A DNA stretch of 64,000 bases, taken from positions 434,001 to 498,000 of the forward strand of contig NW_027271166.1 in assembly GCF_040938485.1 (NCBI RefSeq), in the 5' to 3' direction. The DNA is from Diadema antillarum (lineage: Eukaryota). Shown in pieces: positions 1-14,177 of this stretch. Position numbers: made by a program. Every line of letters begins with the position of its first letter. Position 1 is the stretch's first letter.

Positions 1-3000
1 ACGTATGCCCATGATTTTTTTTTTCATCATGGCTACTTCTAAAACACTGATAAATTCAGTGCTTATTCACGGCAGTTTGTCAATCAGTTACAATGAAAAA
101 CGGAAGAATTTCATGAATGTGAATAACACTAACGTGTGTCTGTAACATTCCATTGAAGTCAATGATATATATTCAAACTTCTCGTCAACTGGGCTTTATA
201 ATTTTAAATTCATTTATAGAGAGCAAACACCACAATAGCACAATTATTACTATTGAGATTGGTGGTATAAAAGTTTTTGAGACGCCTTAAGATAAAATAT
301 GTGTTAATGTTGGAAGGAAACACTTCTACGTCTTACATTTTAGCATTTTAGCGCCGTACATCGTATATCGCGCCGAAAATACATACTCCATCTTATTGTC
401 AATGACACATTCCAGTTTAAATCAATCGTTTTGTTCCATTATCACTTTTATTTTATTTTTTGTTCCATTACCACTATCAATATTATCATATTGTTTATTA
501 CTAACAAATAATTCAACAAACTTTATTGAAATTGAATCAATAATACAAAATGATACACAAAGACACGGCTTTCACAAAATACTCTTAGATTTAAACCTCT
601 GATGTTTGTCTTTATAGTCGACTTGCAGATATTTTCCCCCGTGCTTTCAGGCTTTGTCCTTTTCATTGGGTCCCTCCATTTTTCGAATTTTGCGTATTGT
701 TTACTTCCCTCTGATCACTTCAGTTTTATGACAATGTATACACTCTTTTCAACTCACATTGTTTTACGCACCTTATTTTCTGTTACCAAAAAATTATGTG
801 TGTATGTCTTTTTTTTTTTGAAAAATGAAATTGAAAATTAAAATGGAAAATTGAATTGAATGGCTCAGCAGAAGAGACCGACATTGTCTTCTGGTCAATA
901 AGACAGGCAGATTGCTCGTGCTTCCCCCGCCTTGGAGGCTCGCCAAAATCGAATCTCCCCTCCTTCCATTATCATCGCCATGCGACCATAATCATTCTTG
1001 TCGTTTACCCATACTAGAAGAGAAGAGAAGAGAGATAAAGAAGGAGAAAGGGGATGGGTTATCGGAAACACAACAACATGTTCGTGATATATTTTGACAA
1101 AAATAATGCTAACATAGAGTTTTTATTGACCATCAGAAACAAGCAGTCCAATGAAACAAAGAGTAGACGGAAGAAAAAGATGTTGATGAGATCAATGGCT
1201 GCGTGAGAGACGCAACGTATGTCTCTAATGGAAGGCAAACACACTTTCTACCGTATTTCATTCATCCATGGTAGTTAAAGAAAGCGCAAAATATGTATTT
1301 ACAAATATATATGAATATATATATATATATATATATCCTTCCTTTATCAATACATCATACAACATGAATAGATGAATATATACCTCCACAGACATATTTC
1401 ACATTCCAAGTGCAGTTAAATTTTAAATAAGGCAACTTCTATTCGTATTGACTGTCGATATTGATGTGATATCTCCAGCTTCATACTTTGGTATTGATAA
1501 GAAGGCAAACCACTATCCACTGACACATCCACCATCAGTTTATGTACGTATCATATGGATTTTCATCTAAATACACATGTATATACAGTGTATTCTACAT
1601 TCTTTATGTATTAATTTGATGTATATTATAACTATGTGTGTTTTGTATGGGTGTGTTCGTGTGTGGATGTATCATGCACTTGTGTTTGCGTGTCTTTACA
1701 TTTTTTCGATTTGCATAGACAGGGAAACATGTGTACCAGATATTTCCTTCCCTTTCCATTCCTTTTATACACCAGTACACGCACCTTGAGTCTCGTTCGG
1801 AAAGAGGGAGTCCAGCGGTACGCTTTTGCCAGTCGGAGGCCAGGCGCACCGCCACTCGCCCGTCGATCCCTGGTACGATGAACTCCAGTCAGTGAGATTG
1901 GCGAGCCAGCAGCAGGTGCATCGGTACCACACGTAGTCATGGTTACCGCACTGGGCCAGTTCGGCACGGAAAGCCTCCAGGACGAATGACCGGTTGAAAG
2001 GCATTGGCATTTGTCGTTCGCGGCAGAATATCTTGGCGAGATAAAACTTCGACTTGGTGCACAGGATGAGAGAATCATTTCCTGAGGATAAGGATTCGGT
2101 GAGTATACAGAGATAGGGGAGAAGGGAGAGAGAGGGAGGGGGAGTGGTATTAAAATCAACTCATAAACAGCAGGAATTACATCTCACCACCTCAGAAAAG
2201 TAGCATTCAGAAGACAGGCAGCTCTTCAGGCTGTCACAGAAAATACCACTTCCTCCACATCAAGGTTCATGCCATCTTCATAACTATAGGCGGCGCATAT
2301 AAAGCACCAGACCTTCATCATCCAGGACTGCCCAAACGCTCCCCACAGGAAATATAACCTCAGCAGAAAGGCGAGCTAGCTCTCCAACATGTGGAAAGAA
2401 CAACAACCTGCAGGCAGACTCACCAGCGTGCTGCCATTAAAATCCAACACCCCGTGCCTGCAAACGCAAAGAATTATGCCATCTAAACTGACTCCGCACT
2501 GGCGTCCGGCTCTTTCAAAGCCTGCAGGTACCTGTGGAATCTCTCGGACTCAGACAGACGCGAATATGGTGAGGCACACACGGCGGACCACCTAATCGAA
2601 CACGGCACTATCCATCACCTGATCCCTGGCAGGTGGATGGACTGTCCTCCGAAGTCTCACTCCTGCTACCATGCAGGACCTGACTGAAAGATACAGTCTT
2701 CACCGCTAAAGAAAAGAGACGATCGATCAGAACCTACAAGCAAGAGGAGGAAGAAGAAGCGCTTAAATGAATAAGGTTTCTATTCTAACTTATGAAACTG
2801 TAGCAATGAATAGTAAAAGTTATGACATAAAGATAACGTATCAATTCACAGAAATGTGGTTTATCGGATTTCAGTGGTTTAGTGTAACCAAGGGAAAAAA
2901 ATCGATTTCTTCAATACCAGTAGATTCGTTGACGCGGAGAGCGGGCTGACTGGTTGGGGCTGCTTCGGATGTCGCACCTGATTCTGCGTCTGTTGTTTGC

Positions 3001-3779
3001 ACTGAGCTCCAGCCATCCCCTTCTTCTGCCCCCAAACTTTCAGATGGCCCAGGATCGTCGATCATTGTCTCGGTCATGACCGTGGTCAGGGCAGTGGAGT
3101 CGGGAATGATTGTAGGCGATGCCGAGGAGAAGGTAGGTGGGTTCACTCCCGATCTTGTTGGTCTAGGACTGCGTGTTTGTCCGCCATTGTCGTTTGTATA
3201 TCCTGCGAGTAAAGTGATACGGCTCATGGTCAACGAAACAAGAAATGAATCCGGTAGAGTCTTTCGTGGAGAACTCCAGAATGAACTCATTGATTTTCCT
3301 CGTATAATCTCTCGAATTTCCAGCTAATTTCCAGTGAATTACTCTGTTTGCTTTTTGAGTAACCTTAGTGTAACGCGTATAGACATTTTATCCACTTGAT
3401 ACATCTCTTCTACATATTGTTGGAATTGAAAAAGGAAATAATTTAAAAACTGTCACAGAATTGACAAGAATCGAATTTAACAGCAATCTTATCATGTTTC
3501 ATTGGCGTAGAATAAAAACAGAGGTCCATGCGTTTTTCACCCTATGTCCCGATTTCATGATCAGATTGGAATTCTTCCTGGGCATTTATGTCGTCAACAG
3601 TACAAGAAATTCTATTTATTCTGAAATATAAACGAATATGAACTAAATAACGCAATAGGAACAACACGTGGAACTAGTTTTCAATATTCAATCATTCTCA
3701 GATTTCTTAACTATTTCGCGTGAAAGTTTAAACTTTCGTGAACTTTTGAGATGACAATGGCAGGGGCCAAAACGCCATC

Positions 3780-3816
<37 letters not shown>

Positions 3817-11831: not shown

Positions 11832-11890
<59 letters not shown>

Positions 11891-14177
11891 CTAGAAGGGA
11901 AAGAGGAATATCGAAGCGAGTTGCAATATCAAGCAACATCTTCGGTAGATGTTGAACAATTCTCACCTGTATCACTCAGTGATGGGAGACAGACACAGTG
12001 CGAGTTGATTCCAGGGAGGGGAGAGATGAGCGGTTTGATTTTCAGCGGGAACGTCGCGAGCTGCTTCCCGTCTCTCCCGGGGAAAGGACGACATAGGCTG
12101 GCCAAGTCTGCACACGAGTCGGTATGGACAGTGTTACTGCGCCGGCGAAGGATTACATGCTTTGAAGCATATACCAACCATGTACCATCTGTGGGACGTT
12201 AACATGCTAACATGTTTAGTAAGATGGATTAGCCGAACTAAAGTTGTCCATATCAATTTACCATAATAAAAGAAAATAATTGACCGTCTCAGTTGACTTT
12301 CATTACATTCCATTAAAGGGATGGTATAGTTTCGGTTGAGATTGGGCTTCAGGTTTCCAACCTTGTTTGATGATGATTTTTTTTTTCAGATGATGAGAAA
12401 CCTCTTCTCTAAATCCCTCTTCTTAGAATGGCATGCTCTCCATAACACTTCTTGAAGTGGTTTTTAACATGTTGTTTAAGGAGCTTACACAAAGTTAAAA
12501 GCTGAATCCTCACCTAAACCAAATACTAAACCATCCCTTTAAAGTTTCATCATCTGTTTCTCTGTTGAAACATATCATTGCATGTAGGCCTACAGAGTGT
12601 CCATGACTGTCTGTTTGGTGACGTCATCTTTATGTAAACAACGAATGATCTAATATGCGGTAAGGAAAATTAGCAGACAATTCAGAATTAGATTGATAAG
12701 GGGTAAATGTAAATAAGAATCATAAATTTAGAATGGTAAATCATAACTTAGACTAAGTGACTCCCGCGTCATCCGACGCATGACTCGCTCAGCCTCCTCC
12801 ATTTGGATATGTCAGCAGTCAGGTCTTTTATATTCCCCCAGTTTCCAAGTTTCCACGTTTCCAAATCATGCTTCATGTCATTTGTATCATTCCGGAATAT
12901 GATTTAAAAAGTCAAGTCAAAACAAAACAAAACAAAACTTTCACTCAGCGGTAGATTCTGCTTTACTTGTTTTTGTGTGTGTTTTTTAAAGACTTTGTCA
13001 TCGAGTACTGTTTCTGACACCATCGGTCATAACAGATTCGACCTTTGCAAGACGTCCAGAACACTCGGCATTTAACTCAATTTGTTTTCGTTTGACTTTC
13101 AACGAACTATATACACAGTGAGATTTGACCACAATCATGTTCATCGGTCAAACAGAAAGATATTATTTTAATGTTTGATACTATCAGGGACCTGTTGCAT
13201 GAAACTTTCTAACTGGGAAAACTTAGGTTGATTGTTTTTTTTTTTCGCAGAGCTTTCCCTGTGTTAGAGTCAATGGAGGAATCATACTAACCCAATTTTT
13301 CTGTTCTGTTCTCTTGTGTTTTTCTCAGGTATAACGTTTATGCAACAGGTCCCTGGTGTTAAGATATACAAGATTGTATACTTACATACGGATAGCAGCA
13401 AACAAAGCAGGCACCGCGTCGTCATCTTGATGTGTTCGTTTGTTCTGTGTGTTACTCCTAAATACCATAGCATAGAAAGTGACGGAACGATAAGTTCCAC
13501 TTTACTATTTCTTAATCGCACCCTGTATTTTTTTCCACAAGCACAAACTTCACTTTCACTATGTTCACATCAGAATAATATAATGACCAACGCACAACGA
13601 ATAAAAAAGCGCAGCCTGACACATAGGGCCTACTCCCACACACACAGGCATGATACATGATATATGCACATGTACAAGCTTCCTGTACTCTACACTTGTA
13701 TTTCGAAATATCCTTTTCTTTTCTACATTAATACCCTATACCGTTGCTATAAAATACTAATATGTATCCCACTATGTTATATTCACTTAATTTGTTCCAC
13801 AAGTCAATACATACATAGAAGTTTAACTTGGAATTCTGCATTGAACGTAAAGTTCGATTGTGATTTCACCCAAAAATGTAGTCCTTATTGCATTGATTAC
13901 AATGACTCTGCAAAGAATAATCAGAGACAATATTGCTGCATATAATCCGTGGTACTCAAAATATATACTTATAAACTGCGTAAGACTGCATTGGTAATCT
14001 CACAATAAGCAGATAAGCAACAGGTGTGATATTGATTCAGACAACTTACCTTTCCCATTTCTCATGTTTCCTATTTCGAATTTTTCCGAAGTACGTTGCT
14101 GGTGGGAGAGCTTATATAGTCAGAGTGACAGAGAAGTTGAAATTTTCTGTAGCGCGGGGTTGAGAGGTAGAGAACGA

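What the first reader, a model, noticed from the sequence alone, without database searches (positions are those of the whole stretch)
1785..13425. Unrecognised duplicated secreted protein: signal peptide + 4-Cys module + mucin stalk + compact lectin-like domain
Seen: splicing minus-strand exons at GT-AG sites conserved in both copies gives one open frame. All internal exons are phase 1-1, the signature of exon-shuffled extracellular modules. The first module (C-x6-C-RPFPGRDG...HCVC) resembles no family I recognise. The 99-codon module has CTLD-like spacing but no EPN/QPD or WND Ca2+/sugar motifs, and an unusual RCTCCW cluster right after the VW strand. Inference: a compact CTLD lacking the long loop region, in a lineage-specific extracellular recognition or matrix protein (immunity, fertilisation or biomineral matrix). 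The ORF track misses the gene as a unit.
[Added by the scan's program, not by the reader: the finding's places include an assembly gap (unread letters, written N; its length is only estimated) at 8958 to 9107, 11200 to 11344. Whether the letters on both sides are continuous or in frame is not known: test that first.]
Basis: partly seen in the sequence, partly recalled or inferred. Interest (0 to 1): 0.65.

Follow-up and report, generated by a model that had tools for sequence, protein, structure and literature searches.

The report
Duplicated five-exon secreted cysteine-rich glycoprotein gene

Summary
The exons, GT-AG sites, phase 1-1 boundaries and the tandem duplication are all in the sequence. 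I found a fifth, terminal exon: 1013-895 in copy A and 8709-8591 in copy B. It is open only in phase 1, follows a long pyrimidine tract, ends in TGA, and differs at 3 of 119 nt against about 15% in the flanks.

With it, copy A reads ATG to TGA in 948 nt. The C-terminal cysteine-rich domain then spans exons 4 and 5: 138 codons and 8 Cys in copy A, not 99 codons and 7 Cys.

Exon 4 is under purifying selection (dN/dS 0.32, p=0.0005). Indels in exon 2 are 9, 3 and 3 nt.

No exon peptide matched Pfam or PDB sequences. AlphaFold models were low-confidence. The only C-type-lectin signal is a sub-threshold ESM-Atlas lead.

Gap 8958-9107 is intronic. Gap 11200-11344 hides the start of copy B's exon 3. 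The spliced (joined) protein was not searched.

Verdict: a real, ordinary lineage-specific secreted gene pair of unassigned family.

The parts
4206..4245 (-). Copy A exon 1: ATG at 4245-4243, 13 hydrophobic codons plus 1 base, donor GTAAGT.
   Evidence: In-frame stop 21 nt upstream of the ATG.
3883..4089 (-). Copy A exon 2 (207 nt, phase 1-1): end of the signal peptide plus the 4-Cys module C-x6-C-RPFPGRDG...HCVC.
   Evidence: The acceptor cccacag| is conserved in both copies. A's nearer AG at 4070-4069 aligns to TG in B.
2918..3202 (-). Copy A exon 3 (285 nt, phase 1-1): Ser/Thr/Pro-rich spacer. An alternative phase-1 donor lies after 2978.
   Evidence: No tandem repeat inside it.
1785..2081 (-). 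Copy A exon 4 (297 nt, phase 1-1): first 99 codons of the C-terminal Cys-rich domain. It has 7 Cys, 5 Trp and 4 N-x-S/T sequons.
895..1013 (-). Copy A exon 5, coding part (new; below the finding's start). It is a phase-1 acceptor after a long pyrimidine tract, then 38 codons with the eighth Cys, then TGA at 897-895.
13386..13425 (-). Copy B exon 1: ATG at 13425-13423, donor GTAAGT.
   Evidence: An in-frame ATG also lies 48 nt upstream.
11967..12188 (-). Copy B exon 2 (222 nt, phase 1-1): 4-Cys module.
   Evidence: It differs from A by in-frame indels of 9, 3 and 3 nt.
10951..11199 (-). Copy B exon 3, visible part. Its 5' end and acceptor lie in the assembly gap 11200-11344. Donor GTAAAG follows 10951.
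9855..10151 (-). Copy B exon 4 (297 nt, phase 1-1). It has 8 Cys, with an extra Cys at residue 52.
8591..8709 (-). Copy B exon 5, coding part. TGA at 8593-8591.
8958..9107 (.). Assembly gap inside intron 4 of copy B. It is not in coding sequence.
   Evidence: both flanks are collinear with copy A 1259-1345.
11200..11344 (.). Assembly gap over the acceptor and first codons of copy B exon 3. The frame across it is untestable, and it was not filled.

Best explanation
Two tandem paralogues of a five-exon animal gene encode a soluble, secreted, N- and probably O-glycosylated protein of about 315 residues.

Shown:
- The exon structure.
- Copy A's complete ATG-to-TGA frame.
- Conserved splice sites in both copies.
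- Coding-type constraint.
- No hydrophobic segment after exon 1.

Inferred layout:
- A cleaved signal peptide (exon 1 plus the start of exon 2).
- A small, fast-evolving 4-Cys module (exon 2).
- A non-repetitive Ser/Thr/Pro-rich spacer (exon 3).
- A C-terminal 138-codon, 8-Cys, Trp-rich globular domain encoded by exons 4 and 5 together.

The C-terminal domain is the conserved, functional business end. My best guess is that it is a strongly diverged C-type-lectin-like fold. In that fold the single Cys of exon 5 would pair with a Cys in the first helix of exon 4. It would lack the Ca2+/sugar site and so bind a protein, mineral or other non-canonical ligand. The glycosylated spacer would hold out the variable N-terminal module.

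The fold assignment and the ligand are inference, not shown.
For: Gene reality.
- All splice sites are GT-AG and homologous in the two copies.
- Copy A exon lengths 40+207+285+297+119 sum to 948 nt, which is 0 mod 3, from ATG to TGA.
- The coding frame has 0 stops in 7 of 7 exon segments, while the other frames mostly carry stops.
- Exonic indels are 3 of 3 multiples of three (9, 3, 3 nt), against 6 of 28 in aligned non-coding blocks.
- Exon 4 dN/dS is 0.32 (Fisher p=0.0005). Exon 5 dN/dS is 0.13.
- Exon 5 has 3 differences in 119 nt. P=7e-6 at the flanks' 15% divergence.
- The ESM 'recognition' value of 2380 is above the 2300 mark.

Exon 5 belongs to the gene.
- It is open only in the phase-1 frame that the exon 4 donor demands.
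- It has a strong pyrimidine tract and the longest exact shared run of the locus, 79 nt.
- It raises copy A's Cys count from 7 to 8.

Secreted and soluble.
- Exon 1 is hydrophobic (KD 1.58 and 1.80).
- No later exon exceeds 0.96 over 19 aa, and the tail scores 0.01, so there is no TM or GPI-type segment.
- Exon 4 carries 4 N-x-S/T sequons in each copy, 3 of them at the same positions.

CTLD-like lead.
- ESM-Atlas rank 5 is a cluster with Lectin_C on 29% of members, score 0.88. All ten best family-bearing hits share one family or clan.
- The 138-codon size fits the 110-140 range.
- There are 7 Trp (5 in exon 4, 2 in exon 5), which fits the Trp-rich core described in PMC7618208.
- The low-confidence AF2 model puts helices at 9-21 and 30-44, where a CTLD has alpha1 and alpha2 (placement recalled, weak).
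Against: - No transcript evidence of any kind was available.
- No exon peptide hit Lectin_C, Xlink or any other Pfam family. Of 8 peptides at E<=10, 7 had nothing and 1 had a chance Herpes_teg_N hit at 12 bits.
- No PDB sequence hit for exon 4 or exon 5.
- AF2 on exon 4 alone gave pLDDT 52.8. Its Foldseek search gave 0 of 119 matches at E<=0.001, and none of the listed matches is a lectin.
- The ESM lead is below 0.9. The tool states that a third of shuffled proteins also get ten of ten same-clan hits.
- There is no literal WIGL, EPN/QPD or WND motif.
- Copy B has 9 Cys in exons 4 and 5, an odd number.
- Copy B's frame cannot be followed through gap 11200-11344.
Confidence: 0.55

Rival explanations
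1. The C-terminal domain (exons 4 and 5) is an orphan cysteine-rich fold unrelated to C-type lectins. The gene would then found or belong to an undescribed lineage-specific family.
For: - Zero Pfam and PDB sequence hits for every exon.
- The top three ESM-Atlas clusters are unnamed 'hypothetical protein' clusters at 0.89-0.90.
- No usable Atlas hit for exon 2.
- No WIGL, EPN or WND motif.
- The unusual C-x-C-C cluster.
Against: - The searches were exon by exon, on pieces that cut the domain in two. That weakens any profile match.
- Size, Trp richness and the ESM lead are all compatible with a CTLD.
Confidence: 0.3
2. One reading: the 99-codon exon alone is a complete compact CTLD (Link-like, without the long loop region).
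For: - The exon is a symmetric 1-1 unit of about 100 residues.
- There is an ESM-Atlas CTLD lead.
Against: - Exon 4 has an odd 7 Cys in copy A and ends in an open phase-1 codon.
- The next exon is the most conserved block of the locus, continues the frame, and adds the eighth Cys.
- No Xlink or Lectin_C hit.
- Exon 4 alone does not fold confidently.
Confidence: 0.08
3. The locus is not a functional gene pair. It could be decaying pseudogene copies. Alternatively, copy B is an assembly artefact, such as a divergent haplotype scaffolded in tandem.
For: - Copy B is built from three pieces separated by two N gaps.
- There is no expression evidence.
- Exon 2 dN/dS is 1.81, and exon 3 is only 40% identical between copies.
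Against: - Both copies keep every visible exon open, every visible splice site, in-frame indels only, and significant purifying selection on exon 4.
- Copy A and copy B's exon 5 with its 3' flank lie on one gap-free stretch, 1-8957. The duplication of at least that part is therefore physically read.
- Introns 2 and 3 cannot be aligned between the copies, which is too diverged for ordinary haplotypes.
- The exon 2 excess of dN is not significant (p=0.13).
Confidence: 0.07

Closest known systems
Soluble single-CTLD proteins with an N-terminal neck (vertebrate CTLD groups VII and XII, as described in PMC514892; passages read)
   Same: - Signal peptide, then a non-globular neck, then one C-terminal disulfide-rich domain of 110-140 residues, with no membrane anchor.
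- The domain is split by introns.
- It often occurs in tandem duplicates.
   Different: - No Lectin_C profile match exon by exon.
- No WIGL, EPN/QPD or WND motif.
- 8 Cys, with a C-x-C-C cluster.
- One intron, 39 codons before the stop. The reported positions are upstream of C1, after WIGL, and between C2 and C3 (PMC514892).
- An extra N-terminal 4-Cys module.
Non-sugar-binding CTLDs (group V type, without Ca2+ motifs; PMC7618208, passages read)
   Same: - No Ca2+/carbohydrate motifs.
- The presumed ligand is protein or another non-canonical target.
- Extra disulfides are common.
   Different: - Those are type II membrane receptors. This protein is soluble with an N-terminal signal peptide.
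- Membership is untested beyond a sub-threshold ESM lead.
Link module / compact CTLD
   Same: About 100 residues if exon 4 is taken alone.
   Different: - No Xlink Pfam hit.
- The domain continues into exon 5, giving 138 codons.
Mucin-like stalk regions of extracellular proteins
   Same: - 41% and 37% Ser+Thr+Pro.
- Fast-evolving: 40% identity between copies.
- It sits between two folded modules.
   Different: - Only 82-94 residues.
- No tandem repeat found.
- O-glycosylation is untested.

Membership tests
C-type lectin-like domain (Pfam Lectin_C, PF00059 and clan) | Significant match to the family profile | tested here: not met
   hmmscan against Pfam at E<=10 gave no Lectin_C or Xlink hit for exon 4 (both copies) or exon 5 (both copies). 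This was tested exon by exon only. The joined domain was not searched.
C-type lectin-like domain | Globular fold of 110-140 residues with two helices and two antiparallel sheets, where the N- and C-terminal strands pair (PMC7618208) | tested here: inconclusive
   Exons 4 and 5 give 138 codons, which fits the size. The AF2 model of exon 4 alone has pLDDT 52.8. Foldseek against PDB gave 0 of 119 matches at E<=0.001. The fold of the whole domain was not modelled.
C-type lectin-like domain | At least two conserved intrachain disulfides | not testable with these tools
   8 Cys (copy A) or 9 Cys (copy B) are available in exons 4 and 5. The pairing is unknown.
C-type lectin-like domain | WIGL motif in beta2 | tested here: not met
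   There is no WIGL-like tetrapeptide. Only Y-V-W-Y/C-R-C is present at residues 49-54 of exon 4.
Ca2+-dependent carbohydrate-binding C-type lectins | EPN or QPD motif plus WND motif (Ca2+ site II) | tested here: not met
   All are absent from exons 4 and 5 in both copies. Only FPN (exon 4 residues 93-95) and VND (exon 5 residues 2-4) are present.
Link module / compact CTLD | Self-contained domain of about 100 residues matching Xlink | tested here: not met
   No Pfam hit. The frame and the Cys count continue into exon 5.
Mucin-like domain | Ser/Thr/Pro-rich, usually tandemly repeated, O-glycosylated | tested here: inconclusive
   The composition fits: 39 of 94 (41%) and 30 of 82 (37%) residues are S+T+P. 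No tandem repeat lies in 2918-3202 or 10951-11199. Glycosylation is not testable here.
Secreted protein with cleavable signal peptide | N-terminal hydrophobic core followed by a small-residue cleavage site, with no later membrane segment | tested here: met
   KD is 1.58 and 1.80 for exon 1. The maximum in all later exons is 0.96. I-S-A|S and V-Y-A|S sit at the start of exon 2 (the -3/-1 rule is recalled). SignalP was not available.
Class 1-1 exon-shuffled extracellular modules | Internal exons begin and end in phase 1 | tested here: met
   Exons 2, 3 and 4 are 207/222, 285 and 297/297 nt with phase-1 borders.

The most novel reading that the evidence does not exclude
The N-terminal C-x6-C...C-x-C module and the 8-Cys exon 4+5 domain are both undescribed folds. 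They would define a new lineage-specific family of secreted recognition proteins.

The paralogues then evolve as a mosaic. The ligand-binding C-terminus is kept nearly identical by selection and/or gene conversion. The N-terminal module, the stalk and the first third of the domain diverge rapidly: exon 2 dN/dS 1.8, dS above 1 in the first 38 codons of exon 4, and unalignable introns 2 and 3. This pattern is known from gamete-recognition and immune-effector genes.
Probability: 0.2. Interest if true: 0.5.

Novelty: new member of a known kind. Interest (0 to 1): 0.3.

Why it matters
The finding gives a corrected, complete gene model of five exons, with stop codon, for a duplicated secreted protein that ORF-based tracks miss. 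It also shows that the interesting domain is 138 codons across two exons, not a 99-codon "compact lectin".

If the domain is a highly diverged CTLD, it adds one more non-sugar-binding variant to a very large superfamily. That would be useful for annotation but not surprising.

If it is an orphan fold with mosaic fast and slow evolution, it would be a candidate recognition protein worth an expression and binding study.

Either way it opens no long-standing question.

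Tried and rejected
- **Pfam, exon by exon (first try one search failed on my wrong coordinates):** 7 of 8 peptides had nothing. 1 of 8 had a chance Herpes_teg_N hit (E 0.16, 12 bits against a cut-off of 25), which I rejected.
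- **PDB sequence searches:**
  - Exon 4 profile and exon 4 single sequence: 0 hits.
  - Exon 5 profile: 0 hits.
  - Exon 2 profile: one chance Mediator-21 hit at E 1.4, rejected.
- **ESM Atlas:** exon 2 gave no usable hit. Exon 4 gave only sub-threshold leads.
- **AlphaFold2:** exon 4 (pLDDT 52.8) and exon 2 (pLDDT 52.6) were both too poor to use.
- **Foldseek against PDB on those models:** 0 of 119 and 0 of at least 500 matches at E<=0.001. The listed hits (methyltransferases, FtsK, ribosomal proteins) are meaningless.
- **Complex prediction:** exon 4 and exon 5 peptides were sent as two separate chains, to see whether the tail packs onto the domain. Result: 'no answer', score 0.00 and 0.00. 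This is no evidence either way.
- **Other copies in the window:** tblastn of all ten exon peptides found only A and B.
- **Rfam and tRNA scans of the window:** nothing.
- **Literature word searches:** these gave background on CTLDs only. Papers cannot be searched by sequence, so I make no claim that the protein is unpublished.
- **Considered and dropped:**
  - The nearer AG at 4070-4069 as exon 2 acceptor, because it is not conserved in copy B.
  - Read-through of the exon 4 donor, because it gives 7 codons in A but about 40 in B and so is not conserved.
  - A cystine-knot or thyroglobulin-type reading of the Cys motifs. This was from recall only, and no Pfam support was found.
- **Not done:**
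  - Any search or fold of the joined, spliced protein.
  - Any filling of the N gaps.
  - The search for homologous proteins, the search of protein representatives, and the metagenome and viral collections, which were closed.
  - Any eukaryotic genome or transcript collection, as none was on hand. Orthologues, taxonomic range and the source organism therefore stayed unchecked.
  - The one genome-contig scan (bacteria and archaea) was not spent.
  - Supplementary files were not consulted.

Full report
**What is there**

A self-comparison of the window shows a tandem segmental duplication. A 122-4028 matches B 7570-12118 in six collinear pieces of 75-83% identity. Only these two copies of the exon peptides exist in the 64 kb (tblastn of ten peptides).

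| Exon | Copy A | Copy B |
|---|---|---|
| 1 | 4245-4206 | 13425-13386 |
| 2 | 4089-3883 | 12188-11967 |
| 3 | 3202-2918 (second possible phase-1 donor after 2978) | ?-10951 |
| 4 | 2081-1785 | 10151-9855 |

All 16 listed sites are GT or AG. Internal exons are 207/222, 285 and 297/297 nt with phase-1 borders.

**The gaps, tested first**

- Gap 8958-9107 lies inside intron 4 of copy B. Its two flanks align in order with copy A on either side of A 1259-1345. It has no bearing on the frame.
- Gap 11200-11344 swallows the acceptor and the first few codons of copy B's exon 3.
  - The readable part (11199-10951) is in the frame homologous to copy A and ends at a phase-1 GTAAAG donor.
  - The flanks are collinear with copy A: A 3193-3062 ~ B 11199-11068, and A 3332-3283 ~ B 11422-11374, E 0.004.
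  - Continuity and frame across the gap cannot be shown. I did not fill either gap.
- Copy A, and copy B's exon 5 with its 3' flank, sit on one gap-free stretch (1-8957).

The model ended at a phase-1 donor without a stop codon. About 770 nt further on, both copies have a block that stands out from the roughly 85%-identical intron.

- A long pyrimidine tract and TAG| precede 119 nt that differ at only 3 positions. P=7e-6 at 15% divergence.
- The block contains the longest exact shared run of the locus, 79 nt.
- It is open only in the phase-1 frame. The other two frames have 3 stops and 1 stop.
- It ends in TGA at 897-895 in A and 8593-8591 in B.

This is exon 5: A 1013-895, B 8709-8591. With it, copy A's exons sum to 948 nt, a multiple of three, from ATG to TGA. 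Read-through of the exon 4 donor instead gives tails of different lengths in the two copies, so it is not conserved.

**Is it a gene rather than chance?**

- The coding frame has no stop in 7 of 7 exon segments, while the other frames mostly do.
- The only exonic indels between copies are 9, 3 and 3 nt. Only 6 of 28 gap runs in aligned non-coding blocks are multiples of three.
- Exon 4 has dN/dS 0.32 (Fisher p=0.0005). Its last 60 codons give 0.31 (p=0.04). Exon 5 gives 0.13.
- The ESM 'recognition' value for exon 4, 2380, passes the tool's 2300 mark.
- No transcript data were available, so the junctions remain predictions.

**Anatomy of the product**

- **Exon 1** is 13 hydrophobic codons (KD 1.58 and 1.80).
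- **Exon 2, start.** The acceptor conserved in both copies (cccacag|) adds about 8 more residues ending I-S-A|S or V-Y-A|S. By the recalled -3/-1 rule this looks like a signal-peptidase site.
- **Exon 2, remainder** is the C-x6-C-RPFPGRDG...HCVC module. It is 56% identical between copies. Its dN/dS is 1.81, which is not significant (p=0.13).
- **Exon 3** is 41% and 37% Ser+Thr+Pro, 40% identical between copies, and not tandemly repeated.
- **Exon 4** has 7 Cys in A and 8 in B, 5 Trp, and four N-x-S/T sequons.
- **Exon 5** has 38 full codons plus a split Val codon and adds 2 Trp and one Cys.
- No exon after the first has a hydrophobic stretch. The maximum KD is 0.96, and the tail scores 0.01. 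The product should therefore be soluble, with no TM or GPI-type end.

The C-terminal domain is thus 138 codons with 8 Cys in copy A, spanning two exons.

**What family?**

The joined protein was neither searched nor folded, which weakens every test of the exon 4+5 domain.

- Pfam: 7 of 8 exon peptides had no hit at E<=10. The eighth had a chance viral-tegument hit at 12 bits.
- PDB sequences: nothing for exon 4 or exon 5, and a chance E=1.4 hit for exon 2.
- AlphaFold2 with two-sequence alignments gave pLDDT 52.8 (exon 4) and 52.6 (exon 2). Foldseek gave no match at E<=0.001 for either.
- The ESM Atlas gave no usable hit for exon 2.
- For exon 4 the Atlas gave three unnamed clusters at 0.89-0.90. 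It also gave, at 0.88, a cluster in which 29% of members carry Lectin_C. All ten best family-bearing hits were in one family or clan. The tool warns that a third of shuffled proteins show the same.

The C-type-lectin idea therefore remains a lead. For it:
- The 138-codon size fits the 110-140 range.
- The domain is Trp-rich.
- The fold needs the N- and C-terminal strands to pair (PMC7618208, passages). That would explain why exon 5 is indispensable.
- By my own recalled reading, there is an aromatic-x-x-A-x-x-x-C pattern at exon 4 residues 12-19.

Against it:
- No WIGL, EPN/QPD or WND motif.
- The intron position differs from those reported for soluble CTLD genes (PMC514892, passages).

A 'compact CTLD lacking the long loop' is not supported, because the 99-codon exon is not the whole domain.

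**How it most likely works (inference)**

The protein is a secreted glycoprotein whose conserved C-terminal disulfide-rich domain is the binding unit. That domain lacks the Ca2+/sugar motifs, so any ligand is non-canonical.

The glycosylated spacer and the N-terminal 4-Cys module evolve fast. The divergence between copies is a mosaic:

| Segment | Divergence between copies |
|---|---|
| Intron 4 and 3' flank | about 85% identical |
| Last 60 codons of exon 4 | dS 0.17 |
| First 38 codons of exon 4 | dS 1.27 |
| Intron 3 and the middle of intron 2 | unalignable |

The pattern points to gene conversion or to segments of different age, not to selection alone.

**Verdict**

The gene model needed a fifth exon.

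Orthologues, taxonomic range, expression and the source organism stayed unchecked. Nothing suggested a human contig.

This is an ordinary kind of lineage-specific secreted gene pair, so interest is modest.

Noticed in passing
window 19340-24891 and 28337-33990, + strand: Two tandem UDP-glucuronosyl/glucosyltransferase-like genes. The N-terminal exon ORFs (19340-20272 and 28337-29242) hit Pfam UDPGT at E 1.7e-27 and 1.4e-28. The C-terminal exon ORFs (24343-24891 and 33547-33990) match profile positions 409-497. This is a second tandem duplication in the window.
   Followed up: partly
window 39353-40267, - strand: A single-ORF carbohydrate sulfotransferase-like gene. It matches Pfam Sulfotransfer_2 at E 2.4e-54 and covers the whole profile, 1-252.
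   Followed up: partly
window 1785-3883 vs 9855-11967: Mosaic divergence between the two gene copies. The last 60 codons of exon 4, intron 4 and the 3' flank are 85-93% identical (dS 0.17). The first 38 codons of exon 4 have dS 1.27. Intron 3 and most of intron 2 cannot be aligned. This suggests gene-conversion tracts or segments of different age.
   Followed up: partly
window 686-740 = 8337-8391; 1180-1228 = 8865-8913: Exact shared non-coding runs of 55 nt (3' flank or UTR) and 49 nt (intron 4, containing a short GAGAC...GTCTC inverted repeat). The surroundings are about 85% identical. They may be conserved regulatory or UTR elements. No Rfam family matched.
   Followed up: no
window 3779-3816 and 11810-11891: A (CAA)n microsatellite sits at the same place in intron 2 of both copies, with 12.7 and 27.3 units. 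Many other dinucleotide repeats lie in the 4.3-7.5 kb spacer between the copies.
   Followed up: no
window 12189-13385: Intron 1 is 116 nt in copy A but 1197 nt in copy B. Parts of B's intron have weak copies elsewhere in the window, for example near 58000, 23750, 33290 and 51800. It is probably an interspersed-repeat insertion.
   Followed up: no
window 13473-13471: Copy B has an additional in-frame ATG 48 nt upstream of the ATG at 13425, with no stop between them. Homology with copy A favours 13425 as the start.
   Followed up: no
window 30823-30964 and 46762-46948: Two further assembly gaps lie outside the finding.
   Followed up: no
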